From IMG/VR virus record IMGVR_UViG_3300045988_154892: a stretch of 64,000 nt of DNA; one strand, 5' to 3'. Source of the DNA: a virus. Below the pieces are notes generated by a model. That model did not search any database and was not told where the DNA came from. It was given only the letters and a program-made list of their open reading frames with translations. Of the stretch, positions 9,447 to 59,292 are shown one piece after another. How positions within the stretch are numbered: position 1 is the stretch's first letter; each line of letters begins with the position of its first letter. The position numbers and the translations under genes are program-made.

Positions 9447-9539
9447 ATGTCACTTGAATATGCCGTTGGATACTATGGAACCTTTGTCGCAATTGGGGTC
9501 ATTATTATTATAATTATTGCTGCGATTGCCGATTTATGA
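9447..9539 (+). CDS. 30-aa hydrophobic peptide
   Basis: ATG behind TAGGAGG; Ile/Val/Ala-rich core. Confidence 0.35.
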   Translation: MSLEYAVGYYGTFVAIGVIIIIIIAAIADL

Positions 9540-9552
9540 TTGGAGGAATAAA

Positions 9553-10557
9553 ATGAATGAAAGAGTACAGACAGGCTTAGAGGAAGAAAAACTTAAATAT
9601 AAACGAAAAATCGAAAACATTATGAAAGGGAAGTCTAAGAATCTACAAGACTTCCTTTTATATATGCATGATTTATCAGAAAAGACAAAATATGTTTACA
9701 TGTGTGATGTATTAAAATTTCTAAAGTTCACAGGAAAAGAAAAAGAAGAAGATCTTGAACTGAGAGATTTTGTATCCTATATGGCAAAAATACAAGATAA
9801 AGACAATGGATTAGAAACAGTTTCTTCTTATCAAATTGCAGTTTATTCTGCACTAAAACTTTTTTCAAAATGTATGTTTGCATATAAAATTTTTTCGAAA
9901 AATTATATGGAAGAAATTGCGAAGCCAAAAAAGAGAGAGCAACAGAGAACAATAGAAAGAAGAGAAAAGAGTTATTTGACTCCAGAAGAAACACAAACGT
10001 ATCTTTATAATGTAGACCATAAGCTAACAGGGAAAACAAGGAAACCATCAGCTATTTGGTCACAAAGAGATATTGCAGTTATAAAACTTTTTCTTTCTAC
10101 AGGCGTGCGTTGTGCAGCGTTATCTAATATGGATATAGAAAACTTAAATATGGATAAAGGAACTTTGATTGTAACAGACAAGGGGAAAAAAGTTCATACA
10201 TTCATTTTAATTCCGAAAGTTTTAGATGAATTGCAGAAATGGTTAGCATACAGAGATCAACTTGTAACAGTACGCGATACACCAGCTCTATTTCTTGGGA
10301 AAACCGGAAAGAGATTGTCAACAAGTGCAATTTCGGATATTACAAAAAAATATGCTTGTAATATAAAAGGAAAAACAATTAGTCCACATAAACTAAGGGC
10401 AACATATGGTACTACATTGTACAACGCAACGGGTGATATTGTGCTTGTACAGAAAAATTTACATCATGCATCAATTAATACAACGCTGTTATATGTAAGA
10501 GGAATGGAAGAAAAAGCACAAAAAGAATCTGTAGAAATCATGAAAAATATTATCTAA
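9553..10557 (+). CDS. tyrosine recombinase / phage integrase family
   Basis: C-terminal catalytic region HKLRATYGTTLY ... LHHASINTTLLYV (R..H-x-x-R..H..Y pattern); ATG behind TTGGAGG. Confidence 0.85.
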   Translation: MNERVQTGLEEEKLKYKRKIENIMKGKSKNLQDFLLYMHDLSEKTKYVYMCDVLKFLKFTGKEKEEDLELRDFVSYMAKIQDKDNGLETVSSYQIAVYSALKLFSKCMFAYKIFSKNYMEEIAKPKKREQQRTIERREKSYLTPEETQTYLYNVDHKLTGKTRKPSAIWSQRDIAVIKLFLSTGVRCAALSNMDIENLNMDKGTLIVTDKGKKVHTFILIPKVLDELQKWLAYRDQLVTVRDTPALFLGKTGKRLSTSAISDITKKYACNIKGKTISPHKLRATYGTTLYNATGDIVLVQKNLHHASINTTLLYVRGMEEKAQKESVEIMKNII

Positions 10558-15467: not shown

Positions 15468-16268
15468 ATGGCGAGAAAGAAAGTAAATAAAGAATTAACC
15501 ATAGAAGAACAGTTACAGAAAGAAAGAGAAAATGGATTAAGCTTTATTAAAGATGAAGTACCACATTTGAATGAGCCAACTTATAGATTTGAAGTTGGAG
15601 ATAAGGTAAAATATGGTGCATTAAAGGATTGTACAGTAAAAGAAGTGTTATATGATGGAAGGGTGTATGGTTTACATTGTATTGCTACTGAAGAAAATTA
15701 TGGAAATCCTTATGATAGAGAAGTATATAGAGTTGCTGGATGGACTAGCGTTAGACCGTTTACTAATGGGGATTCAAAATTTAGCAAGAATCAGGATGTA
15801 AAAATTAATTTTAATAATTCAATGATCGAATCTCTTATTCACAAGTATTATGCTTTTGGCGTAGATATGAATCCTGAATATCAGAGAGGGTATGTTTGGG
15901 AATTAGAAGATAAACAGTTACTTATAGATAGTATTTTTAATAATATTGATATAGGTAAATTTGCTTTTATTCATTTGGATGATAAGAAATGGGCTGAGAC
16001 AGGTAATGGATATGAAATACTTGATGGTAAGCAGAGATTAAGCACAATTATTGATTTTTATGAGAATAGATTTCCATATAACGGAGTTTATTACAATGAC
16101 TTATCGGCTAAAGATAAAAATGTTTTCTTAAACCATCATATTGTGCAAGGAGAAGTAAGAGAAGCAGATAGAAAGGTAGTATTAAAATATTTCCTAATGC
16201 TTAATAAAACTGGAAAGTCAATGGATCAGTCGCAGCTTGATAAAGTTGAGAAAATGTTAGAAGAATAA
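15468..16268 (+). CDS. DUF262 (ParB/GmrSD N-terminal-like) domain protein
   Basis: PEYQRGYVW ... ILDGKQRLSTI (DGQQR-type motif). Confidence 0.75.
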   Translation: MARKKVNKELTIEEQLQKERENGLSFIKDEVPHLNEPTYRFEVGDKVKYGALKDCTVKEVLYDGRVYGLHCIATEENYGNPYDREVYRVAGWTSVRPFTNGDSKFSKNQDVKINFNNSMIESLIHKYYAFGVDMNPEYQRGYVWELEDKQLLIDSIFNNIDIGKFAFIHLDDKKWAETGNGYEILDGKQRLSTIIDFYENRFPYNGVYYNDLSAKDKNVFLNHHIVQGEVREADRKVVLKYFLMLNKTGKSMDQSQLDKVEKMLEE

Positions 16269-20827: not shown

Positions 20828-21511
20828 ATGCAGTACACTATCACAAATGGAAAATGTTGGGTAATTGAAAATCCAATGCGTCCAGGCGAGTATATGGCAT
20901 CAACTATGTCGTCTAGAGCAAAATACTTCACGTTCAAACAGGCAAAGAATCTGTTAAACTCACGGAACAAAAAGATGAGTTGGATTCGTCATGGATACTC
21001 AATGGTTGGAGACGATGGTAAAGCACCATCTGTTTCTCCGAAAGCAAAAGGTAACGGTGGTACTTTTTTAGCAGAGAATGATATCTTCGTTGATCTTACA
21101 TTGCTTGATCGGATTGAGGATGAAACAGAAAAATATTTAAGTCTAGCTGGTTGGAATGAATCCGAACTGAGTAATATATCAGAATCGCTTAATACATATT
21201 TGTCAAAACTTGACTCTGAAGAGAGTGATATTAAACATGCTTTGGTTATTTACGCACATAATCACAATGGAAAAATGCCACAGGCTCACAAAATTGCAAA
21301 AGTTGGTTATATGTTTTTACATATTTTAATTGATCGAGCGCACGTCAAGGCATGTATGAGAAAAGTAACTACTATGAAGAATGCTCTTACATGCTCATAC
21401 TCCATTGGAAAATTACAGCATGAATTAAGCAAAAGTGAGAATGGAGAATATAGCGAATATAAACCAAGAACTGCAAAGTTTGAAGAAACTATGAAAATAT
21501 TAGAAGGGTAG
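20828..21511 (+). CDS. hypothetical protein, apparent paralog of 7271-7840
   Basis: ATG behind AAAGGAGTG. Confidence 0.55.
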   Translation: MQYTITNGKCWVIENPMRPGEYMASTMSSRAKYFTFKQAKNLLNSRNKKMSWIRHGYSMVGDDGKAPSVSPKAKGNGGTFLAENDIFVDLTLLDRIEDETEKYLSLAGWNESELSNISESLNTYLSKLDSEESDIKHALVIYAHNHNGKMPQAHKIAKVGYMFLHILIDRAHVKACMRKVTTMKNALTCSYSIGKLQHELSKSENGEYSEYKPRTAKFEETMKILEG

Positions 21512-21521
21512 GGTGGAAATT

Positions 21522-22232
21522 ATGAGATACAAGTATTTAACAGAGACTCAAATAGAGAAATTAGAATCTCTTACGCCAGAAGAAGCAGAAAAAATTCAGC
21601 AAACGTATTTAGATGATGATATGCGTGAGCTTAAAAAAATCTGCAAAACTTTGATTTACAAAAAGAAAAAATCATCGCAGGATTTACCGACACTTCATGA
21701 TGCAGAACTTGAAAGCCTAGCAGTAGAAGTTTTTCTGTCAAGTTTACTCAAATATAATTCGGATGTCAAATGCACTTTTAAAACGTATTTATATGGAAAT
21801 ATTTGGAGAAAATATTGGACATATACAAGAGATATCGAACGTAAAAAACGCTGTGTTTTTGTTCCAGATATTGATGAAGAAACTGGCAAGCAAAAAGTTG
21901 ACAAAGAAGGAAATCCTAAAGAGAAGCCTGTATTTGATATCTCCATATATTCTCAAATCGATGAAAATGGAATGCAACTCTGGGAAACATTTGTATCTGG
22001 AAAAACCGTGGAAGATGTCGTCTTTCAAAATGATCAAGAAATGTCATCTGCGATGAGAGAATATACTAATAAGTTATCAAGAGTACAGAGTGTAATTTTA
22101 CATATGCTTGCAGATGGATTTAATGAAGAAGAAATTCTTCAGAATTTACATATTTCTAAGTCACTCTATAACGATAGCTTAAAAGCTATCCGGAACAACT
22201 CAAATACAAGAATACTTAGGAGGGATTATTAA
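21522..22232 (+). CDS. sigma-70-family (ECF-like) sigma factor candidate
   Basis: Region-2-like FKTYLYGNIWRKYWTYTRD and region-4 HTH LSRVQSVILHMLADGFNEEEILQNLHISKSLYNDSLKAIRN. Confidence 0.6.
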   Translation: MRYKYLTETQIEKLESLTPEEAEKIQQTYLDDDMRELKKICKTLIYKKKKSSQDLPTLHDAELESLAVEVFLSSLLKYNSDVKCTFKTYLYGNIWRKYWTYTRDIERKKRCVFVPDIDEETGKQKVDKEGNPKEKPVFDISIYSQIDENGMQLWETFVSGKTVEDVVFQNDQEMSSAMREYTNKLSRVQSVILHMLADGFNEEEILQNLHISKSLYNDSLKAIRNNSNTRILRRDY

Positions 22233-23734
22233 TGTTAGATGAATACAGAATCGAACAGATGGGCGTAGGAGCTTATGTTGATAGTATTGATGAGGAAGTT
22301 ATTACTGTTGATCAGGCAGTCCAGAGAGCGTTTTGTTGGTCAAATGAAATGATCAATAATTTGATTTATAGTACTGTATCTCCAAAACGGATTTACATTC
22401 CAAACATTATTCTTGCAGAAGAAAAAAGAGAAGATGGGCTTACTACTACATACGTAGTGGACGGTGGTCAGAGAACCGAAGCGCTCAGACGTTTTGTATT
22501 TGATGGGCATAAGATCTCTAAATCAATCCGGAATAGATATGTGACTTATCAAGGAAACAAACTGGATAAAAATGGAAAACCTATGAGAGATGAAAATGGA
22601 AAACTGATCAAAGAAATCAAAACATTTGATCTGGTTAATAAAACTTATAATGATTTTCCACCAGAACTGAAAAAGAGAATGAGATCATGTCAGTTGTCTG
22701 CTGCAATTTATCAGGAATGTACTCCAGAAGATACCTGCGATCTTGTCATGTTATATAACTCTACTATTCCAATGAATGTAAGCCAGAAGGCGTTTACTTA
22801 CATTGGTACATTTGCGGATAAAATTAAACGGATTAAAGATAATAATCGTTTTCTTAAAGATTGTACGATGCTGAATGAGTTAGACAAGAAAAAAGGCATC
22901 TGGGAAAGAGTGATCATCGAATGCGTTATGGCGATGTTTCATTTAGAAGAATGGAAAAAGGCGCCAAGGGATATCTGCAAGTATCTTAATGAGAACGGAA
23001 CAGAAGAAGAATTTGATACACTGAACAAATACTTTAATATGTTAATTCCTTACGCAGATAAACTCGATCATACAGAAGTAGCTGAATTATTTGTGTCAAA
23101 AGATTTTATGGCATGGATGACTCTTATGAAAAGAGTCTTAGATGAAGGAGTTTCACCAGAAAATTTTGGAAAATTCCTGATTGCATTTAATGACATGAAA
23201 GAAATCAAAGTCAATGATACTGATTGGATTGAAATAGAACAGGATAAACACACAAAGGACAAGAAAGTAATTCAGCAGAAAATTGATTATTTACATACTT
23301 TATTAGTGGATTTTTTACATATTAAAGAGAATAAACATAATGAAGATGCAGAGAGCGAAAGTATCAAAGACTCATCAAAAAATTCAGAGGGTGAAGAATC
23401 TGCAATCATTGGTGTTGATGATCGTATTGATCAGAATGATATTGATTTTGTACATACTCATGTAAATGAGAAAGTAGATCCAGACGACATCGAATTTTAC
23501 AACGAGTGTCTGCAGGATACAAAAGTGTCTGCAAATGTTTATCAGCAGTGTAAAACAGCGTTAATTGCATTGATGGTTTATGCAGCGCAGAATAATCAGG
23601 ATCAGGAATTTGAACAGTGGATTGGAGAATATCAGAATGCAGATGATGAATATAGTTCCAATCAGGGTATTAATTTCAGATTCATGAAACGAGATTTCGA
23701 AAATTTTCTTATTAGAAAAGGAAACGCAGCGTAA
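22232..23734 (+). CDS. DUF262 domain protein with long C-terminal extension
   Basis: AVQRAFCWS ... VVDGGQRTEALRRF; no His-Me/DUF1524 nuclease motif seen. Confidence 0.75.
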   Translation: MLDEYRIEQMGVGAYVDSIDEEVITVDQAVQRAFCWSNEMINNLIYSTVSPKRIYIPNIILAEEKREDGLTTTYVVDGGQRTEALRRFVFDGHKISKSIRNRYVTYQGNKLDKNGKPMRDENGKLIKEIKTFDLVNKTYNDFPPELKKRMRSCQLSAAIYQECTPEDTCDLVMLYNSTIPMNVSQKAFTYIGTFADKIKRIKDNNRFLKDCTMLNELDKKKGIWERVIIECVMAMFHLEEWKKAPRDICKYLNENGTEEEFDTLNKYFNMLIPYADKLDHTEVAELFVSKDFMAWMTLMKRVLDEGVSPENFGKFLIAFNDMKEIKVNDTDWIEIEQDKHTKDKKVIQQKIDYLHTLLVDFLHIKENKHNEDAESESIKDSSKNSEGEESAIIGVDDRIDQNDIDFVHTHVNEKVDPDDIEFYNECLQDTKVSANVYQQCKTALIALMVYAAQNNQDQEFEQWIGEYQNADDEYSSNQGINFRFMKRDFENFLIRKGNAA

Positions 23735-23752
23735 AGAAAGGAGAATAAAATA

Positions 23753-24229
23753 ATGCAGATGAATATTGATGACATCAAAATTTCAGATCAGTTTCTTAAA
23801 TCACATCCATCAACAGAAAAAATGGAGAGATTCGAAAAGTATTGGCTTTTGACCAATCATCAGGATAAACCAATCGTTGTAGATAAATGTGGTTATCTCG
23901 TAGATGGATATATCCGATATCTTATTATGAAAAGAAATGGTGCAAAAACAATTCGGACAGTATATAAAGGTCAGCCAGGTGCGCTGATCAAAGGTGTTCA
24001 TATCAATTACAATGGTATTGGTATGAAAGAATACATTTGGCGAGTGCCAAGAGTTAAAGGATGGAGAAAATTCATCAATAATCTGCAGATTGGTGACGCA
24101 GTATTATGTGTTACGAAAAAAGGTGTAAAACCAGTCAAAGTTACAGAAATTCAAACAGAGAATATTATTGACGGGAGAGAATACAGTAAGGTGCTGATTA
24201 ACAAAAAGATCGAAGTCAAAACAAAATAA
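23753..24229 (+). CDS. ParB N-terminal (Srx)-like domain protein
   Basis: KPIVVDKCGYLVDGYIRYLIMKRNG resembles the ParB-N core with the GxxR box altered. Confidence 0.55.
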   Translation: MQMNIDDIKISDQFLKSHPSTEKMERFEKYWLLTNHQDKPIVVDKCGYLVDGYIRYLIMKRNGAKTIRTVYKGQPGALIKGVHINYNGIGMKEYIWRVPRVKGWRKFINNLQIGDAVLCVTKKGVKPVKVTEIQTENIIDGREYSKVLINKKIEVKTK

Positions 24230-24249
24230 GAAAGAGGTGAAACAAAAAT

Positions 24250-24405
24250 ATGCTACTTACAATTTTAAGAATCATTCTAATTATCTTCGCCTGGTTAAAT
24301 CTAATTGAAGAGAAGCAAGAACGAAAAAGTGAAAAAGTTTTATGGATCACTATTATTGTAACTACTGTAGTTGAGCTAGTATATAGCTTTTTCGGAATAT
24401 ACTAA
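24250..24405 (+). CDS. 51-aa membrane protein
   Basis: ATG behind AGAGGTG; two hydrophobic segments. Confidence 0.4.
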   Translation: MLLTILRIILIIFAWLNLIEEKQERKSEKVLWITIIVTTVVELVYSFFGIY

Positions 24406-24417
24406 CGGAGAATAGTA

Positions 24418-24539
24418 GGTCATGCGATTTAACATGCCTAAAAATGAGGTCGGAAATGGTTCCCGACGCACTCTGTAAAGAGTACCTGAGATGATGGTTA
24501 CGCCGCCCATCCATTTTTGGCATTTCAAATCGCATGACT
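24418..24539 (+). ncRNA. tRNA-like cloverleaf RNA closed by a long helix (Y-RNA-like?)
   Basis: P1 24419-24430/24527-24538; P2 24434-24446/24512-24523; three 5-bp hairpins 24449-24467, 24470-24483 (GUAA loop), 24493-24511; locally GC-richer, no plausible ORF. Confidence 0.55.
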
Positions 24540-24555
24540 GAAATATAAAATGCGA

Positions 24556-24571
24556 TGAAAGGCACATTTCA
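24556..24571 (+). repeat. junction motif TGAAA-N6-TTTCA
   Basis: TGAAAGGCACATTTCA upstream of the clpP SD. Confidence 0.65.
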
Positions 24572-24595
24572 GAAAAATAACAAAGAGGAGTAGTT

Positions 24596-25150
24596 ATGAG
24601 TTCAAGAGACAATACATACACAAACACAAGAACATTTTTTCTGTCAGATGATGTTGACAATGAATCGGTTGGGAAACTGATTTGGGGGATGCTTTATCAG
24701 ATCAATGAAGACAATGAAAAAGATGAAAAAGAAAAGGATTACAAGCGCGATCCAATTAAACTGTACATTAATTCCTGCGGTGGAACTATTTATGATATGT
24801 GGGCGCTGATTGATGTTATTCAGAATAGCAAAACGCCGATTCACACATATTGTATGGGATATGCCATGAGTGCAGCATTTGATATCTTCTTAGCAGGTCA
24901 TAAAAGGTATTGTTACAAGCATTCTACTTTCATGTATCATCAGATACATTGTAAGAGAAGTGGAAAGTATCAAGATCTGGTTGAAGATAGAATTGAAATG
25001 GACAATCTCAATAAGCAGATTGAGGAATATGTTTTGGAAAGAACAAAGCTGACGAAAGAAGATATTACTGACATTCGTGAAAAGAAGAAGGACTTCTATA
25101 TTCATTCGGATAAGGCGATTGAGTACGGTATCGTGGATGAAGTACTGTAA
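24596..25150 (+). CDS. clpP: ClpP-family (S14) serine protease
   Basis: INSCGGTIYDMWALIDVI, GYAMSAAF (Ser), FMYHQIH (His). Confidence 0.8.
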   Translation: MSSRDNTYTNTRTFFLSDDVDNESVGKLIWGMLYQINEDNEKDEKEKDYKRDPIKLYINSCGGTIYDMWALIDVIQNSKTPIHTYCMGYAMSAAFDIFLAGHKRYCYKHSTFMYHQIHCKRSGKYQDLVEDRIEMDNLNKQIEEYVLERTKLTKEDITDIREKKKDFYIHSDKAIEYGIVDEVL

Positions 25151-25197
25151 AGAACTTATACTGCGGAGAATATACCAATAGAAAAGGAGCTTCTTAT

Positions 25198-25377
25198 ATG
25201 AATAAATGTAATTTTTGTGCATATTCAATACCTACTGATCAGATGGGTGTATGGATATGTGAATATAAAGAATTTGACAAAAGAGAATTGTTTTGCGAAC
25301 AAGCAATAGAAACAATGATGAAATACAACGAAATAAGAGCTAATAACAATATAAACAAAATGAAAATGGAGGAGTGA
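25198..25377 (+). CDS. hypothetical Cys-containing 59-aa protein
   Basis: ATG behind AAAGGAG. Confidence 0.45.
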   Translation: MNKCNFCAYSIPTDQMGVWICEYKEFDKRELFCEQAIETMMKYNEIRANNNINKMKMEE

Positions 25378-25381
25378 ATAT

Positions 25382-26584
25382 ATTAAAATACAAAGATGTG
25401 AACAAATAATAATAAGAAAAACTCATCCTAAATTTAAAGTGATTGACCAGCAATGTTTTCATTCAAAGAATCTATACAATGAAGCTAATTATACAATTCG
25501 ACAAGAGTTTATAAAAAATAAAAGTTATATTAGTTATTATGATATGAATCGAGATTTTAAAACTCATGAAAATTATAAACTTACATTTAGCCAACCAGCG
25601 AATTGTATTTTGAGGTTGCTTGATAAGAATTGGAAATCTTATTTTAATGCAATAAAAGATTGGAAGCAGCATCCTGAGAAATATTTTGGGATGCCAAAAC
25701 TTCCAAAATATCTTAAAAAGGATGGAAGATACTTATGGATAATCCCTAACAATCAATGCCATTATGACTATGAAAAAAGTGCTGTGCATTTAAGCAATAG
25801 ACTGGTAAATGATTATGAATGGAAATGTAGATGTTTGGGGCGATTAATTCAAGTCAGATTTATTCCAAGAGGATCGTGTTATGTGATGGAAATTGTATAT
25901 GAAATAGAAGTTCCTAATACGAACAGAAAATCAAAGAATATAGTAGCTATTGATTTAGGTGTAGCTAATCTTGTAACTATGACAAATAATATCGGATTAA
26001 ATCCAATTATTATTAACGGCAAGGGACTCAAAAGTATAAATCAATATTATAATAAAAGACTTGCAAAAGAAAAATCGTCACTAAAGATCAGAAATGGTAA
26101 AGATTGGTCAAGGAAACTTAATATTATAACTTTTAAAAGATTTCAGAGAATAAAGAATTATATGCATAATACGAGTCGTTATATTGTCAATTGGTGTATC
26201 AAAAATAACATTGACACATTGGTTGTTGGTAAGAACGATGAGTGGAAACAAGGAAAGAAACGTATGCAGAATTTTACATTTATTCCATACGAAATATTAT
26301 TACAACAACTTAAATACAAATGTGAAAACGCTGGGATTAATTACATTGAGACTAATGAAAGTTATACATCTGGAACAAGTTTTTTAGATGAAGAAGAACC
26401 GACTAAACAAAACTATAATAAAGACAGACGAATTCAAAGAGGATTATTTAGAAGTAATTCTGGATTGCTTATTAATAGTGATGTAAATGGTTCGTTACAG
26501 ATTATGAAAAAAGTATTCCCAAAGGCGATTAGTCGATATGGGATAGAGGCTGTTCTAACGCCTATAGTTATAAATGCAGTGTAA
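25382..26584 (+). CDS. tnpB: TnpB (IS200/IS605 OrfB) RNA-guided nuclease family; non-canonical start
   Basis: IDLGVANLVT (RuvC-I), ETNESYTS, NGSLQI. Frame is open from 25364. First canonical start (GTG 25439) would cut off the N-terminal IKIQRCEQIIIRK. ATT 25382 lies 9 nt after GGAGG. Confidence 0.75.
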   Translation: MKIQRCEQIIIRKTHPKFKVIDQQCFHSKNLYNEANYTIRQEFIKNKSYISYYDMNRDFKTHENYKLTFSQPANCILRLLDKNWKSYFNAIKDWKQHPEKYFGMPKLPKYLKKDGRYLWIIPNNQCHYDYEKSAVHLSNRLVNDYEWKCRCLGRLIQVRFIPRGSCYVMEIVYEIEVPNTNRKSKNIVAIDLGVANLVTMTNNIGLNPIIINGKGLKSINQYYNKRLAKEKSSLKIRNGKDWSRKLNIITFKRFQRIKNYMHNTSRYIVNWCIKNNIDTLVVGKNDEWKQGKKRMQNFTFIPYEILLQQLKYKCENAGINYIETNESYTSGTSFLDEEEPTKQNYNKDRRIQRGLFRSNSGLLINSDVNGSLQIMKKVFPKAISRYGIEAVLTPIVINAV

Positions 26585-26639
26585 ATTGCATGATTTACTA
26601 TAAACGGATTTTATAATCCGATAGAGCATGGGTTTCAAC
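26540..26639 (+). ncRNA. omega/reRNA scaffold 3' part of tnpB element 1 (approximate)
   Basis: GGGATAG box 26540, as in element 2 at 41839; hairpin CGGATT/AATCCG 26605-26620; terminal GGGTTTCAAC 26630-26639. Confidence 0.35.
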
Positions 26640-26681
26640 GTAAAAATAATAGAAGAAAAACGTAAAGAAGGAGAAAAAATC

Positions 26682-28745
26682 ATGTTAGATCAGTTCGTAA
26701 TTTTCAAAGAAAAACTTCAGAAACATTTTGTGGAGATGACCAAGGACGCAGATAAGTTATTCGAAGTGGACGTAGACAAGGAGCTGCTGTGGGATACATA
26801 TCTCGATAGCTTTGCGCCAGGAACGAACAATATTTTTAGAGAGAGAAGAGAACATGACTGTACCTGCTGCCGCCAGTTCATTCGTACAATCGGCGCTGTG
26901 GTTGTAATCAAGGATAATAAAATGGAAAGTATTTGGGATGTAGATATGTCTGGAACTATTTATGAGCCGGTAGTCAAGGCACTTTCAAAACTTATCCATA
27001 ACGAAGAGGTAGTCGATGTTTTTGTAAGTCAGCTTAAAAATATTGGCACAGATAAGAACTTTGAAATGATCAACGGAAAATCGCATCAGTGGGATCATTT
27101 CTATATGGAACTTCCTACGAAATTTGTTTTTGATTCTTATAGATCTGTTGGAGAGATTCAAGGTGAATATAGGGATATCCGGAATGTGTTCAAACGTTCT
27201 CTTGACGAGATTACTATTGACTCTGTAGAGACAGTTTTAGAGTTGATCAATTCTAATACCCTGTATCGTGGAACAGAATGGAAAGTTCCACTTGTAGAAT
27301 TCAAGAAGTATAAAACAGAATATGATAAACTTCCAGAAGAAGAAAAAGATTTGTATGTTTGGGAGAAATCTCTGAAAGCAGGAGCTGTTATTGGCAAAAT
27401 CAGAAACCATTCTATTGGAACACTACTTGTAAATGTAAGTGAAGGAATGGATCTTGATACTGCAGTTAAAAAATATGAGCAGATCGTAGCACCCAGCAAC
27501 TATAAAAGAAGTAAACCAATTTATACTCAGAGAATGCTGGACGATGCAAAGAAAACTCTGACAGAACTTGGGTATATGGATTCTCTGAAGCGTCGCTTTG
27601 CAAATCTGGATGATATCACAGTAAATAATATTCTATTTTCTAATAAAGATGCAGCGAAGAGAATTTCTGGTAGAGGAGACATTTTTACAGAGATGTCAAA
27701 ATCTGTAGCAGTTAATCCAAAGAAATTTTCTAGAGTAGAAGAAGTGACAGCACAGGATTTCGTAGAAAAGGTTCTTCCGACCGCGAAAGAGGTTGAAGTA
27801 TTTGTAGAGAATAAACATGAGAAAAACTTTGTTTCTTTAATTGCCCCAGAAAATTCGAATGCCAACACAATGTTCAAATGGAACAATGGTCTGAGCTGGG
27901 CATATACAGGAAACATTACCGATTCTGATATCAAACAGAATGTAAAGAATGCTGGTGGAAATGTAGATGGAGTGCTTAGATTCTCTATTATGTGGAACGA
28001 GGATCAGAATGACAACAGTGATCTTGATGCTCACTGTATTGAACCAAATGGTCATGAAATCTATTTTGGTAGTGATAGAAAACCATCTATGTCGAAACTT
28101 GGTGGTCAGCTTGATATTGATGTGATTGAGCCATATAGCAGTATGCCAGGGAAGCCAGCAGTGGAAAATATTACATGGCAGGACAAATCGAGAATGATTC
28201 CTGGCGCATACAGATTCTTTGTAAATCAGTATACCAACCGAGGAAGTAAAGGATTTAAAGCAGAAATTGAATTCGATGGCGAGATCTATTCGTTTGAATA
28301 CAATAACCCAGTGCGTGGAGACGTAGACGTCGCAGAAGTAATTATGGATAAGAACGGAAACTTTACCATCAAAGAAAAACTTTTTGGTCACTCGGTTACT
28401 TCTAGTAGAGAAGTATGGGGAGTAAAGACAAATCAGTTTACACCTGTATCTGTAATCAGTTACAGCCCGAACTATTTTGATGAGCAGAATGGGATCGGGA
28501 ATAAACATCTTTTCTTCTTCCTGAATGGATGCGTAAATCCAGAACAGCCGAATGGTTTCTTTGTGGAATATCTTAAGAATGAATTAGTTCCACATCGTAA
28601 AGTATTTGAAGCACTTGGCGCAAAGTGTAGTGTAACAGACGTCGATGATCAGCTCTCTGGTGTTGGTTTTAGTCTGACGCAGCGCAATGAGCTTATCGTT
28701 AAAGTAAAAGGTGCAACAGAAAGAATCATTAAAATTAAATTTTAA
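26682..28745 (+). CDS. large conserved hypothetical protein (687 aa), C-terminal DUF2135-like segment
   Basis: ATG behind AAGGAGAAAA; HDCTCCRQF near the N-terminus; LRFSIMWNEDQNDNSDLDAHCIEPNGHEIYF...GGQLDIDV...VENITW resembles DUF2135 as I recall it. Confidence 0.6.
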   Translation: MLDQFVIFKEKLQKHFVEMTKDADKLFEVDVDKELLWDTYLDSFAPGTNNIFRERREHDCTCCRQFIRTIGAVVVIKDNKMESIWDVDMSGTIYEPVVKALSKLIHNEEVVDVFVSQLKNIGTDKNFEMINGKSHQWDHFYMELPTKFVFDSYRSVGEIQGEYRDIRNVFKRSLDEITIDSVETVLELINSNTLYRGTEWKVPLVEFKKYKTEYDKLPEEEKDLYVWEKSLKAGAVIGKIRNHSIGTLLVNVSEGMDLDTAVKKYEQIVAPSNYKRSKPIYTQRMLDDAKKTLTELGYMDSLKRRFANLDDITVNNILFSNKDAAKRISGRGDIFTEMSKSVAVNPKKFSRVEEVTAQDFVEKVLPTAKEVEVFVENKHEKNFVSLIAPENSNANTMFKWNNGLSWAYTGNITDSDIKQNVKNAGGNVDGVLRFSIMWNEDQNDNSDLDAHCIEPNGHEIYFGSDRKPSMSKLGGQLDIDVIEPYSSMPGKPAVENITWQDKSRMIPGAYRFFVNQYTNRGSKGFKAEIEFDGEIYSFEYNNPVRGDVDVAEVIMDKNGNFTIKEKLFGHSVTSSREVWGVKTNQFTPVSVISYSPNYFDEQNGIGNKHLFFFLNGCVNPEQPNGFFVEYLKNELVPHRKVFEALGAKCSVTDVDDQLSGVGFSLTQRNELIVKVKGATERIIKIKF

Positions 28746-30244: not shown

Positions 30245-31060
30245 ATGATTACTTTAAATAGTAAAGAAGTAAAAGTAGAACACTTTCCAGATGGAACACA
30301 GAGAATCGTACTAGATGATTGTTTTTATCAGAAATATAACAACATTACATGGAAGTATGAAAAAGAAGAAGAACTTTCAACGCTGATTTATATTACAAAA
30401 CATTTAAAAAATTTTCCATATATTAAATCAATTGATCTTACAATGTTTTATCTTCCGAATGCCAGAATGGACAGAATCCATGATCAGGGCGAGGTTTTTA
30501 CATTAAAATGGTTCGCTGATGTTATTAATTGGCTCGAATTTGATAGAGTAGAGGTACTTGATGTTCATAGTAATGTTGGAGCAGCGCTTTTGAATAGAGT
30601 ATATGTCTTTAATCCAAGAGAATATATTGATGAAGTAATTGAGCAGATTAGTAAAGAAAATCTTATTCTTTATTTTCCGGATGCCGGTAGTTCGAAAAGA
30701 TATTCTGGATTGTTTTCTGACATTCCGTATTGCTATGGTGAGAAAAATCGAGATTGGAATACAGGAAAAATTCTTGGACTCAAAATCAGAGATAACGGTA
30801 TTGATCTTAAAGGTAAAAAAGTTTTGATGATTGATGACATCATTTCATATGGCGGTTCTTTATATTATAGTGCAAAAGCGTTGAAAGAACGTTGTGTAGA
30901 TAGAATTTATGCTTATGCATCACATACCGAAAATTCAGTTCTTGATAGAGAAAAAGGAACATTAATCAAATCACTTGAAGATGGAACAGTTGAAAGATTA
31001 TTTACAACAGACAGTCTTTTCACAGGAAAACACGATAAAATCACAGTTATGGAGGTCTAA
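30245..31060 (+). CDS. prs: ribose-phosphate pyrophosphokinase-like enzyme (Prs family; Adps candidate)
   Basis: FPDGTQRI, LDVHSN, KKVLMIDDIISYGGSL PRPP-type loop; shorter than a housekeeping Prs. Confidence 0.75.
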   Translation: MITLNSKEVKVEHFPDGTQRIVLDDCFYQKYNNITWKYEKEEELSTLIYITKHLKNFPYIKSIDLTMFYLPNARMDRIHDQGEVFTLKWFADVINWLEFDRVEVLDVHSNVGAALLNRVYVFNPREYIDEVIEQISKENLILYFPDAGSSKRYSGLFSDIPYCYGEKNRDWNTGKILGLKIRDNGIDLKGKKVLMIDDIISYGGSLYYSAKALKERCVDRIYAYASHTENSVLDREKGTLIKSLEDGTVERLFTTDSLFTGKHDKITVMEV

Positions 31061-31061
31061 T

Positions 31062-32534
31062 ATGAGAAACATTTCTTTTATGCTGATGGCAGACACATAT
31101 AAAAATACAAATCCAGATGCTCTTCCGGCAGGTCTTACAAAATTAACTTCCTATATTACTCCAAGAAAGTCAATGTTTAAAAATCTGAATGAAGTAGTGT
31201 TCTTTGGATTACAGTGCTTTATTAAGGAATATATGATTGAATTAGCAAACGAAACGTTCTTCAAAAGACCAAAAGAAGAGGTTGTTGCAGAATATAAAGA
31301 ATATCTGGATAATCAGATCGGTTCTCAGAGTTATGATCTTGGACGTATCGAAAAATTATGGGATCTGCAGTATTTACCTGTAGAGATCAAAGCTCTTCCA
31401 GAAGGATCTGTTGTAACAATGGGAGTCCCGTGTATCGAGATGAGTAACGCACATCCGGATTTCGCATGGACGGTACAATGGCTGGAATGCATTATGCAGT
31501 CTTTTATTTTTGGGACATGCAACTGGGCAACTGTAGGTCATAAATATAGAACACTCGCAAACGAGTTTTATGAAAAAACAACCGATAATAAAAATCCAGC
31601 AATGGCAATGGCAGATTTTGGATTCAGAGGGCTTGGCATCGAGAACGGTATCCACGCCAGCTCTTCATGGCTTCTGTCATTTGACAAAACCTCTACAATT
31701 CCAGCAACCCAGTATATTGATAAGATGTACAATGCAGATTGCGTCAAAAATCATATTGGAATCGGAGCAGTTAGCCTGGAACATGCAACAGTATGCAGTA
31801 ATTTGGCAGTATGTGAAACCGAGGAGAATTTATTAAAAAGACTGTTGACAGATACGTACAAGAATACTTCTTTCAGCTATGTCTCTGACACTTTCGATTA
31901 TTGGAAACTTATTGAAGAAGCGCTTCCAAAACTCAAGAAAGAAATTGAGGAGCATAATGGTAAATTCCTTGTACGCCCTGATAGTGGAGATATTGTTGAA
32001 ATTTCAGTAAAAACAGTTCAGAAACTGTACGAGATTTTTGGCGGAAGTGTAAATTCCAAAGGGTATAAAGAGCTGAATCCAAAGATTGGTATTATTTATG
32101 GAGATGGCTGTCAGTACAGTAAAATCAAAGAAATTTGGACACAGCTTGAAAAACTTGGATTTGCTGCAGATACGATCCTTTTTGGAGTAGGTGCATTCTC
32201 ATTTTCAGCAATGTGTACTCCGGAAGATGGAATGGTTTGCCTAACTAGAGACACATTTGGATTTGCTATGAAAAGTACCTATTGTGTAATTGATGGAAAA
32301 GAATATACCATTCAGAAAAATCCAAAAACGGATAGAAATAATTTAAAGAAATCACATAAAGGTCTTTGCCGTGTTGTGAAAGAAGGTAATAATTTTGTAT
32401 GCCATGATGGATATACAGAAGATACGATTCCAGAAGAAAATGAATTAAAACTTATCTTTAAAAATGGAGAATTAGTAAAAGAGCAGACCTTTGGAGAAAT
32501 CAGAGAAAGACTGAATGGAGAAAATCATGATTGA
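31062..32534 (+). CDS. nadV: nicotinamide phosphoribosyltransferase-like enzyme (NadV/Nampt family; Namat candidate)
   Basis: ADTYK, DFGFRGLG, LVRPDSGD, IIYGDG. Confidence 0.8.
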   Translation: MRNISFMLMADTYKNTNPDALPAGLTKLTSYITPRKSMFKNLNEVVFFGLQCFIKEYMIELANETFFKRPKEEVVAEYKEYLDNQIGSQSYDLGRIEKLWDLQYLPVEIKALPEGSVVTMGVPCIEMSNAHPDFAWTVQWLECIMQSFIFGTCNWATVGHKYRTLANEFYEKTTDNKNPAMAMADFGFRGLGIENGIHASSSWLLSFDKTSTIPATQYIDKMYNADCVKNHIGIGAVSLEHATVCSNLAVCETEENLLKRLLTDTYKNTSFSYVSDTFDYWKLIEEALPKLKKEIEEHNGKFLVRPDSGDIVEISVKTVQKLYEIFGGSVNSKGYKELNPKIGIIYGDGCQYSKIKEIWTQLEKLGFAADTILFGVGAFSFSAMCTPEDGMVCLTRDTFGFAMKSTYCVIDGKEYTIQKNPKTDRNNLKKSHKGLCRVVKEGNNFVCHDGYTEDTIPEENELKLIFKNGELVKEQTFGEIRERLNGENHD

Positions 32535-33033
32535 AATTATCGAAGGAAATTTATTTGATACGGATGCAAAATTTATTTGTCATCAGGTAAATTGTATGGG
32601 AAAGATGGGATCTGGCGTGGCTTTGCAGGTCAGACAGCGATTTCCACATGTATACGAAGAATATAAAAAGGTAGCATCATCGGATATGCTGGGGAAAGTA
32701 CAAATTGTACCAGTCAAGCCAAAATATATTGGATACGACTGTGGATCGATTGCGATTCCAAGTAATGAACAGTGGATTTGTAATTTCTTTGCACAAGATA
32801 ACTATGGATATGACGGAAAACAATATACTTCTCTGGAAGCATTAGAAAAGTGTTTTAGAACTATGTGTCGGAAAGCACATGAAAGGAACAATAATTTTAG
32901 TGCAACAATTGCTATGCCATATAAGATCGGCTGTGATCGTGGTGGAGCAGATTGGGACGAAGTATATTCAATGATGCAGAAGATTTTTAATGAACTTGAT
33001 ACTCATGTTGAACTGTGGAAATTAAATCAGTAA
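32527..33033 (+). CDS. macro domain protein (ADP-ribose binding/hydrolase)
   Basis: IIEGNLFDTDAKFICHQVNCMGKMGSGVALQV. Confidence 0.75.
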   Translation: MIEIIEGNLFDTDAKFICHQVNCMGKMGSGVALQVRQRFPHVYEEYKKVASSDMLGKVQIVPVKPKYIGYDCGSIAIPSNEQWICNFFAQDNYGYDGKQYTSLEALEKCFRTMCRKAHERNNNFSATIAMPYKIGCDRGGADWDEVYSMMQKIFNELDTHVELWKLNQ

Positions 33034-33050
33034 AGGAGAGGAGAATAGAT

Positions 33051-33809
33051 ATGTATACTTTTGATGCAAAAGAAACAAAAAATAAGATTGTCGAGTGGAT
33101 TAAAATGTTCTTTGAGCAGAATGGGAAAGATTGTATTGCCACAGTAGGTCTTTCAGGGGGTAAAGATTCAAGCATTGTTGCGGCTCTCTGTGTGGAAGCT
33201 CTTGGAAAGAATAGAGTTTTAGGTGTGCTCATGCCAGACGGAGAACAGGCAGATATTGAAGATGCCTATGAAGTTGCTAAACATTTAGGTATTGAATACT
33301 GTACTGTAAATATTCATCCAGCAATTCTTGCGCTAAAGCACGAAATCAGACCACAAATTGGTGATCATTGGTCAAAACAGACATCAATTAATCTGCCTCC
33401 TCGAATCAGAATGACAACACTTTATGCAATTTCACAGAGTATGAATGGACGAGTTGCTAATACATGCAATCTTTCGGAAACACTCTTATCTTGGGAAACT
33501 CGCTGGGGCGATGCAGTAGGAGACTTTGCACCATTAAAGGATTTCACAGTACAGGAAGTAAAAGCTATTGGATATGAGACGATTCTACTGAAAAAGATGG
33601 TTGACAAAACGCCGTCAGACGGATTATGTGGATCTTCTGATGAAAGCGCTCTTGGATTTAAATATTCTGTATTCGATCGGTATGCAAGAACAGGTGAAAT
33701 TGATGATGCTGCAGTAAAAGCTATTATCGATGCAAGGGTTGAAAAATACAGATTCAAGAGAAGACCAATTCCATATTTTGAAAGTGGTCTGAAATCATAT
33801 TTAGACTGA
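33051..33809 (+). CDS. nadE: NH3-dependent NAD+ synthetase
   Basis: PP-loop GLSGGKDSS; TPSDGL. Confidence 0.85.
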   Translation: MYTFDAKETKNKIVEWIKMFFEQNGKDCIATVGLSGGKDSSIVAALCVEALGKNRVLGVLMPDGEQADIEDAYEVAKHLGIEYCTVNIHPAILALKHEIRPQIGDHWSKQTSINLPPRIRMTTLYAISQSMNGRVANTCNLSETLLSWETRWGDAVGDFAPLKDFTVQEVKAIGYETILLKKMVDKTPSDGLCGSSDESALGFKYSVFDRYARTGEIDDAAVKAIIDARVEKYRFKRRPIPYFESGLKSYLD

Positions 33810-44260: not shown

Positions 44261-44431
44261 GTGAATCCAATTTTGATCTTTGGAGCAGTATTAGTTACAG
44301 TAATTTTATGGTTTCTGTTGACTTTTCTGTTCCAGCCATTAGGAAAATTCCTACTTCGTATCATAGACGATACGATAGAAACAATGGAAGACGATGAAAA
44401 ACATAAAGAAAAGGAGAAGAAAGAAAAATGA
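44261..44431 (+). CDS. 56-aa membrane protein
   Basis: GTG behind CGAGGAGGTG; one TM segment then an acidic/basic tail; ATGA overlap with the SPFH gene. Confidence 0.4.
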   Translation: MNPILIFGAVLVTVILWFLLTFLFQPLGKFLLRIIDDTIETMEDDEKHKEKEKKEK

Positions 44432-59283: not shown

Positions 59284-59292
59284 GAGAATTGG

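What the first reader, a model, noticed from the sequence alone, without database searches (positions are those of the whole stretch)
24418..24539. tRNA-like cloverleaf RNA closed by a ~25-bp helix (Y-RNA-like candidate)
The region is locally GC-richer and has no sensible ORF. It folds into P1 (24419-24430 with 24527-24538, 12 perfect bp) stacked on P2 (24434-24446 with 24512-24523, 12 bp and one bulge). P2 encloses a four-way junction with three 5-bp hairpins. The first is 24449-24467, with a 9-nt loop AAAUGGUUC. The second is 24470-24483, with a GUAA tetraloop. The third is 24493-24511, with a 9-nt loop UUACGCCGC. The connectivity copies tRNA: 2 nt between the closing helix and arm 1, 2 nt between arms 1 and 2, a 9-nt variable-like linker, and arm 3 abutting the closing helix. 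However, the anticodon loop is replaced by a tetraloop and the acceptor is greatly extended. Bacterial and phage Y RNAs (YrlA-type) are described as a long stem plus a tRNA-like module. This phage also carries RNA-repair enzymes. The RNA lies between a small membrane-protein gene and clpP.
Basis: partly seen in the sequence, partly recalled or inferred. Interest (0 to 1): 0.75.

Follow-up and report, generated by a model that had tools for sequence, protein, structure and literature searches.

The report
Skipping-rope RNA in gut jumbo phage
The flagged 120-nt fold is a real, conserved structured RNA, but it belongs to the already catalogued "skipping-rope" family of phage RNAs (function unknown), not to Y RNAs. 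In other phages every sampled gene for a small predicted RNA-cutting enzyme (PBECR3) is followed by this RNA, and this phage window lacks that gene, so the RNA may be that enzyme's partner or antidote.

Summary
Window 24439-24519 (+) is a full-length, high-scoring match to Rfam RF02924, the skipping-rope RNA (72.1 bits, threshold 36.7). In 52 + 36 distinct homologues all four helices covary. A 3-bp loop-loop pairing between hairpins 1 and 3 also covaries, which gives a tRNA-like four-way junction with an "elbow".

It is not a tRNA or a Y RNA. ARAGORN and Rfam find nothing of that kind, no Ro60/TROVE gene lies nearby, and there is no canonical T-loop.

The ~25-bp closing helix (24418-24539) is a variable feature of the family. 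Long-stem members, including this one, mostly lack the terminator that short-stem members carry.

New here:
- All 66 PBECR3 (predicted BECR-fold endoRNase) genes with enough downstream sequence are followed 22-81 nt later by a skipping-rope RNA on the same strand.
- Only about 40% of the RNAs have a PBECR3 gene.
- The window copy has no PBECR3 gene in 64 kb, yet its core is 65/66 identical to a PBECR3-linked copy.

My best guess (about 0.3) is that the RNA is the partner or antidote of this RNase, and that the solo copy is an orphan immunity or decoy RNA. The family is known, this is a new member, and the function is still untested.

The parts
24439..24519 (+). Skipping-rope RNA core (Rfam RF02924), full model 1-80
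   Evidence: cmscan gives 72.1 bits against a gathering score of 36.7, E 1.8e-15. My own model R1 gives 96.1 bits.
24418..24438 (+). 5' strand of the closing-helix extension (13 bp, a 3x3 internal loop, then 5 bp)
   Evidence: It is part of the MFE fold. The sequence is conserved in six related phage contigs. Homologues are too similar to give covariation for the outer 13 bp, and L069 has a C.A mismatch there.
24520..24539 (+). 3' strand of the closing-helix extension
   Evidence: It pairs with 24418-24438 in the MFE fold. No terminator-like site follows on the + strand.
24439..24446 (+). P1 5' strand of the family-wide 8-bp closing stem, which pairs with 24512-24519
   Evidence: 86-99% of cells are paired at offsets 0-7 across 77 flank pairs. 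All 8 pairs covary in set A3, including the closing G-C, which changes to A-U in 13 of 36 sequences.
24449..24467 (+). Hairpin 1 (5 bp, 9-nt loop AAAUGGUUC)
   Evidence: 98.8-100% of cells are paired, and 3-4 of the 5 pairs show compensatory changes.
24469..24488 (+). Hairpin 2 (C24469-G24488 closing pair, 4-nt 3' bulge ACCU, 4-5 bp stem, GUAA tetraloop)
   Evidence: Rfam structure line. The stem pairs covary. Loop length and sequence vary and tolerate insertions.
24493..24511 (+). Hairpin 3 (5 bp, 9-nt loop UUACGCCGC)
   Evidence: 100% of cells are paired, and 4 of the 5 pairs show compensatory changes.
24458..24460 (+). Loop-loop (kissing) pairing: G24458-C24504, G24459-C24503, U24460.G24502
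   Evidence: The third pair is UA 32, CG 11, UG 9 with none unpaired in A1, and CG 18, UA 13, UG 4 with none unpaired in the independently collected A3. Fisher's test for U/C against A/G gives p = 2.8e-6, not corrected for phylogeny.
24225..24575 (+). About 350-nt cassette conserved in related jumbo-phage contigs: RBS, the 51-aa ORF (24250-24405), the RNA, and about 35 nt downstream
   Evidence: The block is 94-100% identical while the flanks are unrelated in 5 of the 6 relatives. In L069 the ORF has lost its start codon and gained a stop codon, while the RNA is intact.

Best explanation
Identity (confidence about 0.97): this is a genuine member of the skipping-rope RNA family. The family is a phage- and prophage-borne structured non-coding RNA of Firmicutes. 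It is a four-way junction in which hairpin 3 abuts the closing stem, hairpin 1 is 1 nt from hairpin 2, and the loops of hairpins 1 and 3 pair with each other. The result is a tRNA-shaped scaffold whose 'anticodon' arm ends in a tetraloop.

Mechanism (inferred, about 0.3):
1. The RNA is transcribed inside the + strand polycistronic message, because no promoter or terminator flanks it.
2. It is then excised through its ~25-bp closing helix by a double-strand-specific RNase such as RNase III.
3. It acts in trans as the dedicated RNA ligand of PBECR3-type BECR-fold endoribonucleases. Most likely it is an inhibitor or immunity factor, working as a non-cleavable tRNA-shaped decoy, comparable in logic to a type III antitoxin.

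Every PBECR3 gene sampled carries this RNA in its 3' UTR. This phage carries the RNA alone. Its copy would therefore be an orphan antidote or decoy that protects it against PBECR3-type RNases brought in by co-resident prophages or competing phages.
For: Shown:
- The Rfam match is full length at twice the gathering score.
- The four helices and the loop-loop pairing covary in two differently collected alignments.
- Only the ~70-nt RNA core of a 1.6-kb query is shared, at 83-88% identity, with Enterocloster and Streptococcus suis phages.
- The family sits in phage and prophage contexts.
- Reciprocal linkage: all 66 PBECR3 loci with at least 130 nt downstream have the RNA 22-81 nt after the gene, on the same strand. 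Only 41 of 108 RNA loci, or 26 of 66 distinct cores, have a PBECR3 gene. 'Enzyme never without the RNA, RNA often without the enzyme' is the pattern expected of a toxin and its antidote.
- The few other immediate neighbours are also predicted RNases or toxin-antitoxin parts: PemK/MazF-like, Gp49/HigB-like, DUF3800 and SocA/Panacea.
- The window's 66-nt core is 65/66 identical to a PBECR3-linked copy, L089.
- No PBECR3 is found in the six-frame translation of the window (best E 0.21). None of the 78 PBECR3 contigs is one of the four named window-clade contigs.
- The window also carries an RNA ligase and Pnk-like kinase, and NAD-salvage genes. These are typical counter-defence cargo.
- Pfam and Iyer et al. 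[quoted passage not shown]
- There is a precedent for phage escape by an antitoxin-RNA mimic (pseudo-ToxI, PMC5086642).
- Long closing stems go with the absence of a terminator: median stem length is 16 bp without a terminator and 13 bp with one, p = 0.018, and 15 of the 18 members with stems of 20 bp or more lack a terminator.
Against: - No experiment or transcript data exist for this RNA.
- In PBECR3 loci the RNA lies downstream of the gene in the same transcript, at about 1:1 with the mRNA. It is not upstream, repeated and terminator-separated as in type III systems, and that stoichiometry is poor for an antitoxin.
- PBECR3 toxicity, target and RNA binding are all unproven. The AlphaFold model of PBECR3 found no significant structural match. 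The best was the BrnT RNase toxin at E 0.2. There was no PADLOC or PDB sequence hit.
- The linkage could equally mean that the RNA is a cofactor, a substrate, or a 3'-UTR expression element.
- The PBECR3 set was seeded from RNA-linked proteins (34-100% identity), so more distant PBECR3 genes may lack the RNA.
- Many loci are related, so the counts are not independent.
- The outer 13 bp of the window's helix have no covariation support.
- Only 64 kb of a ~212-kb genome were searched for PBECR3.
Confidence: 0.33

Rival explanations
1. The RNA is a cis-acting mRNA element. The structure would define or protect a transcript end, acting as a 3'-UTR stabiliser, a processing site or a terminator substitute, or it would tune expression of the adjacent genes. 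It would have no trans-acting role.
For: - It lies in the 3' UTR of PBECR3 and of other genes such as portal, DUF3800 and lysin-proximal genes.
- It is usually followed directly by a terminator.
- In the window it is embedded between two same-strand genes with no promoter or terminator of its own.
- Long closing stems replace terminators.
Against: - About 22 invariant nucleotides lie in loops and junctions, and a covarying tertiary pairing is present. That is far more than a stabiliser hairpin needs.
- The same core, 65/66 identical, occurs next to unrelated genes.
- A generic stabiliser would not show 66/66 linkage to one protein family.
Confidence: 0.2
2. The RNA is a tRNA mimic aimed at host machinery rather than at PBECR3. 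It would be a decoy or sponge for host tRNA-targeting defence nucleases (anticodon nucleases), or for tRNA-binding enzymes or ribosomal sites.
For: - It has a tRNA-like junction and an elbow-like loop pairing.
- The anticodon loop is replaced by a tetraloop that such nucleases could not cut.
- The phage also carries RNA ligase and Pnk-like tRNA-repair genes.
Against: - No tRNA model or ARAGORN hit is found.
- Arm 3 lacks the T-loop motif, and the acceptor end is closed by a long helix, so there is no CCA end.
- The idea does not explain the obligate PBECR3 linkage.
Confidence: 0.15
3. The RNA is autonomous and has a 'sophisticated biochemical function' of its own, such as an unknown ribozyme or ligand-binding RNA. 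This was left open by Weinberg et al. 2017.
For: - The multi-stem junction is highly conserved and has a pseudoknot-like contact.
- The discoverers placed it among motifs 'suggestive of sophisticated biochemical function' (PMC5737381).
Against: - The discoverers' assays showed no self-cleavage, and the RNA is rarely found in 5' UTRs.
- The tight link to one protein family points to an RNP.
Confidence: 0.12
4. The RNA is a bacterial or phage Y RNA (YrlA-like) that tethers a Ro60 orthologue.
For: - A long stem is formed by the 5' and 3' ends, with a tRNA-like module on top.
- RNA-repair genes are present in the window.
- YrlA-like RNAs are known in phages (PMC4201824).
Against: - No Y-RNA or tRNA model hit reaches E <= 10.
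- No TROVE domain is found within 4 kb or in any larger window protein that was scanned.
- There is no canonical T-loop.
- Family members across 108 loci sit next to PBECR3, portal genes and integrases, never next to Ro60.
Confidence: 0.02
5. The feature acts at the DNA level. The 13-bp inverted repeat and its surroundings would serve as a recombination or transposition target (an att site or an IS200/605 insertion site), not as an RNA.
For: - TnpB and IscB elements end exactly at the left edge of the conserved cassette in relatives.
- In S. suis prophages the RNA lies about 230 nt from the annotated att site.
Against: - Compensatory changes preserve RNA pairing, including G-U pairs, on one strand only.
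- The insertions lie about 190 nt upstream of the inverted repeat, not at it.
Confidence: 0.03

Closest known systems
Skipping-rope RNA motif (Rfam RF02924; Weinberg et al. 2017, PMC5737381)
   Same: It matches the full model and has the same four helices and the same conserved junction and loop nucleotides. It is borne by phages and prophages of Firmicutes, and it lies close to a specific protein gene.
   Different: - The closing stem is extended from 8 bp to about 25 bp.
- No Rho-independent terminator follows.
- It lies inside an operon of a ~212-kb gut phage.
- It has no PBECR3 partner gene nearby.
Type III toxin-antitoxin systems (ToxIN, CptIN, TenpIN; PMC5086642)
   Same: Both pair an endoRNase gene tightly with a structured RNA that contains tertiary (pseudoknot-type) pairing, and both are carried on mobile elements. 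The precedent of phages carrying an antitoxin-RNA mimic parallels the solo copies seen here.
   Different: - The RNA lies downstream of the gene, not upstream.
- It is present as one copy, or two divergent copies, of about 80 nt, not as an array of 34-36-nt repeats.
- No terminator separates the RNA and the gene.
- The protein has a BECR fold, not a ToxN fold.
- Toxicity and inhibition are untested.
tRNA, and tRNA-like modules such as the one in YrlA (PMC4201824)
   Same: It is a four-way junction with the same helix order and linker lengths. The loops of arms 1 and 3 pair, as the D-loop and T-loop do, through a conserved GG.
   Different: - It has no 7-nt anticodon loop, no T-loop motif and no free acceptor or CCA end.
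- tRNA finders and tRNA models do not detect it.
- It has no association with Ro60.
DUF3800-associated RNA motifs (DUF3800-I to -XI) and the drum motif (PMC5737381)
   Same: These are structured RNAs that accompany one small predicted nuclease gene in mobile elements. One skipping-rope locus (L119) has a DUF3800 gene in exactly the position that PBECR3 usually occupies.
   Different: The RNA folds and the protein families are different. Their functions are equally unknown.

Membership tests
Skipping-rope RNA (RF02924) | The covariance-model score is above the curated gathering threshold over the full model. | tested here: met
   72.1 bits against 36.7, model positions 1-80 of 80, E 1.8e-15.
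Skipping-rope RNA (RF02924) | Closing stem plus three hairpins, with the conserved GAGG / GAAA-GG / CNCAC / GAGAUG / CC nucleotides. | tested here: met
   All are present in the window sequence. The 52-sequence alignment has 22 invariant columns.
Skipping-rope RNA (RF02924) | The helices are supported by compensatory changes among homologues that include this sequence. | tested here: met
   In A1, 90% of cells are paired and the covariation score is 0.505 against 0.153 for shuffles (0 of 500 reach it). RNAalifold recovers the same helices. In A3, 98.3% of cells are paired.
Skipping-rope RNA (RF02924) | A Rho-independent terminator follows at the 3' end. The discoverers describe this as typical. 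| tested here: not met
   No + strand terminator-like site lies in 23700-25300. Half of the family members sampled also lack one, and those tend to have long closing stems. The feature is therefore typical, not essential.
Bacterial/phage Y RNA (YrlA type) | It is encoded within about 4 kb of a Ro60 (TROVE) gene, on the same strand (PMC4201824). | tested here: not met
   Pfam finds no TROVE domain in any ORF from 20828 to 28745, nor in the 20 other, mostly largest, window proteins scanned.
Bacterial/phage Y RNA (YrlA type) | It matches a Y-RNA covariance model, or has a tRNA-like domain with a canonical T-loop and D-loop. | tested here: not met
   No Y-RNA or tRNA family reaches E <= 10 on 141 nt. 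The loop of arm 3 is the 9-nt UUACGCCGC. Whether Rfam 15 holds a dedicated YrlA model was not checked.
Bacterial/phage Y RNA (YrlA type) | The terminal stem carries the Ro60-binding motif. | not testable with these tools
   A long stem exists, but no motif definition or binding assay was available.
tRNA / tmRNA | It is detected by tRNA or tmRNA finders, with a 7-nt anticodon loop and a free acceptor end. | tested here: not met
   ARAGORN finds 0 genes in the window. Arm 2 ends in a GUAA tetraloop, and the acceptor-like stem is closed by a further ~17 bp.
tRNA-like fold (works like, not member of) | Cloverleaf connectivity of 2/1/4-5/0 nt, plus a tertiary contact between the loops of arms 1 and 3. 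| tested here: met
   The linkers are AG, G, AGAU and 0 nt. The loop-loop pairs are 100% paired, with CG, UA and UG exchange. The three-dimensional L-shape was not tested.
Type III toxin-antitoxin system | An endoRNase toxin gene is preceded by a terminator and by tandem repeats of a short antitoxin RNA. | tested here: not met
   The RNA lies 22-81 nt downstream of PBECR3, as a single copy or as two divergent ~80-nt copies. The window has no PBECR3 at all.
Type III toxin-antitoxin system | The toxin is toxic and is neutralised by direct binding of the RNA. | not testable with these tools
   This needs co-expression and binding experiments.

The most novel reading that the evidence does not exclude
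Skipping-rope RNA and PBECR3 form a previously unrecognised RNA-protein toxin-immunity pair. A tRNA-shaped RNA that cannot be cleaved would neutralise or license a BECR-fold RNase. Solo copies, such as the one in this gut jumbo phage, would be orphan RNA immunity or anti-defence genes used in conflicts between phages or between phage and prophage.
Probability: 0.25. Interest if true: 0.8.

Novelty: new member of a known kind. Interest (0 to 1): 0.5.

Why it matters
Skipping-rope has been an orphan RNA class since 2017. It is conserved, complex and widespread in gut and streptococcal phages, and it has no assigned function. This analysis gives it a concrete hypothesis that can be tested directly.
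- Within the PBECR3 subfamily sampled (34-100% identical to RNA-linked seed proteins), every gene with enough downstream sequence has the RNA.
- It has a tRNA-like architecture with a covarying elbow contact.
- There is a cultured host for experiments: a Lacrimispora sphenoides prophage carries the pair.

If the RNA is an antidote or decoy, it would be a new kind of RNA-based immunity. The solo copies in large phages would then be a new class of anti-defence gene.

For the window itself the practical result is simpler. The feature should be annotated as RF02924, not as a tRNA-like or Y RNA.

Tried and rejected
1. tRNA, tmRNA or Y RNA: ARAGORN and permissive Rfam scans found nothing but skipping-rope.
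2. Ro60/TROVE, PBECR3 or DUF3800 in the window: Pfam on 29 proteins and an hmmsearch of all six frames with a PBECR3 profile found none.
3. Covariation for the outer 13 bp of the closing helix: the six relatives are nearly identical. The one change, in L069, gives a C.A mismatch, so the test has no power. An alternative hairpin between 24530-24536 and 24549-24555 is compensated in L069 but broken in L018, L054 and L104, so it remains unresolved.
4. Functional link to ClpP, TnpB/IscB or the 51-aa ORF: the neighbours differ among relatives, and the ORF is disrupted in L069.
5. The supplementary text of Weinberg et al. 2017 names the associated protein and may show the pseudoknot, but it is not held. 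I therefore cannot say whether the PBECR3 link and the loop-loop pairing were already reported there.
6. PBECR3 against PDB sequences, PADLOC and Foldseek gave no significant match. RelE/BrnT-like toxins top the list only weakly.
7. Reaching distant PBECR3 relatives with the 5.8-billion-protein search returned only close ones among the 120 listed.
8. A literature search for any functional study of skipping-rope found none in the held library.

Full report
Yes. The + strand of 24418-24539 folds to -46.9 kcal/mol. Dinucleotide shuffles average -27.0 +/- 3.5 (z = -5.6), and 0 of 200 fold as well.

- an outer 13-bp helix (24418-24430 with 24527-24539);
- a 3x3 internal loop;
- 5 bp, a bulged U24439, then 7 bp;
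- three hairpins inside, at 24449-24467, about 24469-24488 (GUAA loop) and 24493-24511.

The core is 47% GC in a window that is 32.7% GC. Only antisense GTG/TTG ORFs overlap it. The reverse strand folds even better (-57.2 kcal/mol), so folding energy cannot assign the strand.

**What is it?**
A gathering-threshold Rfam scan of the whole 64-kb window returns one hit. It is RF02924, the skipping-rope RNA, at 24439-24519 on the + strand, with 72.1 bits against a threshold of 36.7, E 1.8e-15, over the full model. Permissive scans of 401 nt and 141 nt give no tRNA, tmRNA or Y-RNA match at E <= 10. ARAGORN finds no tRNA or tmRNA in the window.

Skipping-rope was described by Weinberg et al. 2017 (PMC5737381). 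They list it as one of four highly conserved motifs 'suggestive of sophisticated biochemical function'. They report that it is usually followed by a Rho-independent terminator, is rarely in 5' UTRs, did not self-cleave, and has a 'compelling association' with a nearby protein gene. The details are in a supplement that I could not read. I found no later functional study in the held library.

**Homologues**
BLASTN of 1.6 kb around the RNA against 50,697 phage records matches only the ~70-nt core (window 24443-24512). It is 83-88% identical in four Enterocloster phages and five Streptococcus suis prophages, and nothing else in the query matches. Two of those hits were retrieved, and Rfam confirms both at 68-70 bits.

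A degenerate pattern scan of viral contigs gave about 86 true copies in 78 dereplicated loci. The same scan of bacterial genomes gave about 26 more. These come from the Streptococcus mitis group, S. suis, Clostridium, Lachnospiraceae, Ruminococcus, Acutalibacteraceae and Carnobacterium.

The window itself matches a 212-kb human-gut metagenome contig, and the ClpP-like protein next to the RNA is indexed in 60 blocks of the collection. It is only distantly related to Bacillus TsarBomba/BCP78-type phages and to Clostridioides phage pCD1602_4.

**Structure**
In 52 distinct cores (alignment A1), 90% of cells are paired. The covariation score is 0.505 against 0.153 for shuffles (0 of 500 reach it), and against 0.12 or less for slid registers. 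RNAalifold independently recovers the same helices.

I also tested a pairing between the loops of hairpins 1 and 3:
- G20-C is present in 52 of 52 sequences.
- G21-C/U is present in 52 of 52.
- The third pair is UA 32, CG 11, UG 9, with none unpaired. Fisher's test gives p = 2.8e-6, uncorrected for phylogeny.

My search pattern fixed the two G residues. I therefore repeated the count on a second set that was collected through the protein neighbour instead of an RNA pattern (A3, 36 distinct sequences):
- 98.3% of cells are paired, and the covariation score is 0.570 against 0.188.
- The third kissing pair is CG 18, UA 13, UG 4, with none unpaired.
- The closing pair of P1 switches from G-C to A-U in 13 sequences.
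- Some members extend the kissing helix to 4-5 bp, for example GGCAC/GUGCC in L040.

With the Rfam structure, the linkers are 2 nt (AG), 1 nt, 4 nt (AGAU) and 0 nt. These are the linker lengths of tRNA (from my own knowledge), and the loop-loop contact sits where the D-loop/T-loop elbow is.

Arm 3 has a 9-nt loop with no T-loop motif, arm 2 ends in a tetraloop, and the 'acceptor' is closed. The RNA resembles tRNA in topology only. This pseudoknot may already be drawn in the 2017 figure, which I could not check.

**The long closing helix**
Family-wide, only the first 8 bp are universal (86-99% paired). Pairing falls to about 57-65% at offsets 8-11 and reaches background by about offset 15.

About 18 of 72 distinct members have closing helices of 20 bp or more, and 15 of those 18 lack a terminator. 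Members with a terminator have a median stem of 13 bp, against 16 bp without (Mann-Whitney p = 0.018, not phylogenetically corrected). The extensions covary among diverse members, for example GCAU/AUGC changing to GCGU/GCGC.

The window belongs to a small clade (L018, L061, L054, L110, L069, L104, from contigs of 146-216 kb where the length is on record) with the longest helix. The outer 13 bp are too conserved for a covariation test, and L069 has a C.A mismatch there. No promoter-like or terminator-like signal above background flanks the window RNA on the + strand. It is therefore probably made as part of the operon transcript. A helix of this length is a plausible RNase III site, but that step is inference only.

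**Genomic context of the window copy**
The gene order around the RNA is as follows:
- upstream: a DUF262/GmrSD_N protein (22232-23734, PADLOC NsnA-like);
- a DUF5839 protein (23753-24229);
- a 51-aa ORF with two hydrophobic segments (24250-24405);
- the RNA;
- downstream: a stand-alone ClpP-family protease (24596-25150);
- a 59-aa ORF;
- TnpB (25439-26584);
- a 705-aa protein matching phrog_1735 (26628-28745).

Among relatives, only a ~350-nt block (24225-24575: RBS, small ORF, RNA and about 35 nt downstream) is conserved. The flanks are unrelated in 5 of the 6 relatives. In L069 the small ORF has lost its start codon and gained a stop codon, while the RNA is intact. The RNA is therefore the constant element.

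This is an accessory, counter-defence-type region. No TROVE/Ro60 domain is present. That fails the YrlA criterion of a Ro60 gene within 4 kb on the same strand (PMC4201824).

**The protein partner**
I clustered neighbouring ORFs over 78 loci. The commonest neighbour is a 122-140-aa protein that is always on the RNA's strand and ends 25-77 nt upstream. It is Pfam PBECR3, with E as low as 4e-23. Iyer et al. [quoted passage not shown]

A profile search of six-frame translations finds PBECR3 at 41 of 108 RNA loci, or 26 of 66 distinct RNA cores with enough upstream sequence.

I then ran the reverse test. Starting from PBECR3 proteins (alignment A2), a viral-contig scan gave 78 loci at 34-100% identity. 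My covariance model R1 finds a skipping-rope RNA 22-81 nt (median 47) downstream on the same strand in all 66 loci that have at least 130 nt of downstream sequence. The 11 loci without a hit are cut off by contig ends, and a twelfth cut locus still shows a partial match.

A chromosomal example exists in an isolate genome. A Lacrimispora sphenoides prophage has PBECR3 followed by one strong and one divergent RNA copy.

Other immediate neighbours are rare. They are PemK/MazF-like (2 loci), Gp49/HigB-like (1), DUF3800 (1, in the PBECR3 position) and SocA/Panacea (5 loci), together with integrases, lysins and portal genes that mark prophage ends and head modules.

The window has no PBECR3 (best E 0.21). 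None of the four named window-clade contigs appears among the 78 PBECR3 contigs. Even so, the window's 66-nt core is 65/66 identical to the PBECR3-linked copy in L089.

**Mechanism**
The asymmetry is the one expected for a harmful enzyme and its antidote. PBECR3 is never found without the RNA, while the RNA is often found without PBECR3. It also recalls orphan immunity genes and the pseudo-ToxI RNAs by which phages escape ToxIN (PMC5086642).

BECR-fold RNases act on tRNA anticodon loops (colicins D and E5), or in the ribosomal A site (RelE). A tRNA-shaped RNA with a tetraloop where the anticodon loop would be is an attractive non-cleavable ligand.

I therefore favour, at about 0.3, the view that skipping-rope is the RNA partner of PBECR3-type RNases, probably as an inhibitor. 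The window's solo copy would then be an orphan antidote or decoy, released from the operon transcript through its long helix.

There are weaknesses:
- The gene order and 1:1 co-transcription differ from type III systems.
- PBECR3 activity is only predicted. An AlphaFold model (pLDDT 80) gave only non-significant matches, led by the RelE-family toxin BrnT at E 0.2. There was no PADLOC or PDB sequence hit.
- The PBECR3 set was seeded from RNA-linked proteins.
- Many loci are related to each other.
- A cofactor, substrate or 3'-UTR role fits the linkage equally well.

**Verdict**
- The tRNA-like topology is upheld.
- The Y-RNA interpretation is rejected.
- The RNA class is already known (RF02924). 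This is a new member with an unusually long closing helix, no terminator and no partner gene.
- The value added here is the obligate PBECR3 linkage and the covarying elbow contact. Together they make the function of a nine-year-old orphan RNA directly testable.

Noticed in passing
window 25439-26584 and 40706-41812; L018/L054/L061 and L069/L110 upstream of the RNA: The window has two TnpB genes. In related phages a homologous TnpB, or an IscB (RRXRR+HNH, 515 aa), ends exactly at the left edge of the conserved small-ORF + RNA cassette, at about window position 24225-24232. Two different OMEGA-type elements therefore use the same insertion point.
   Followed up: partly
window 24530-24536 and 24549-24555: The 3' strand of the outer helix (AUCGCAU) is also complementary to a downstream AUGCGAU. 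In L069 a G-to-A change in the 3' strand is compensated in the downstream copy and not in the 5' strand. This hints at an alternative hairpin, but L018, L054 and L104 break it.
   Followed up: partly
window 24250-24405: A 51-aa ORF with two hydrophobic segments and a strong RBS is co-conserved with the RNA in the clade. Changes are mostly synonymous, but L069 has lost the start codon and gained an internal stop. A weak PADLOC hit to a SAVED_TM model (E 0.0013) is probably due to transmembrane composition.
   Followed up: partly
window 30975-32534 and 33015-33809: Genes for a NAMPT-like phosphoribosyltransferase and an NAD synthase are present. This is a phage NAD-salvage module of the kind linked to countering NAD-depleting defences.
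   Followed up: no
window 58114-60183: An RNA ligase (PHA02142 OB fold plus RNA_ligase domain) is followed directly by an AAA_33 kinase (Pnk-like). The pair looks like a tRNA-repair module similar to the T4 one.
   Followed up: no
window 15468-16268 and 22232-23734: Two DUF262/GmrSD_N-domain proteins are encoded in a phage genome. The second matches the PADLOC NsnA model (E 6.8e-14).
   Followed up: no
window 60277-62904; 44428-45354; 9517-10557: The window carries unusual cargo for a phage. This comprises an 875-aa P-type cation ATPase, an SPFH/Band 7 protein and a tyrosine-integrase-family protein.
   Followed up: no
L325 6555-6634; L277-L283 and L324 2075-2153; L261 2037-2116: Some PBECR3 loci carry a second, divergent skipping-rope copy about 29 nt after the first. 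It is a subtype with hairpin 1 GAUAG/CUAUC and a 4-bp GGCA/UGCC kissing helix. This gives a two-member tandem array of different subtypes.
   Followed up: partly
L030/L058/L083; L009, L039, L066, L080, L155; L124/L149: Several family variants exist. One has a 27-nt insertion in the hairpin-3 loop, and others have insertions of up to about 25 nt in hairpin 2. A Streptococcus/Carnobacterium variant has a hairpin-3 loop without the CC of the kissing pair.
   Followed up: no
L119 1019-1765: A DUF3800 gene ends 34 nt upstream of a skipping-rope RNA on the same strand, in the slot that PBECR3 usually occupies. This fits the 2017 remark that skipping-rope-associated genes may relate to DUF3800 genes.
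   Followed up: partly
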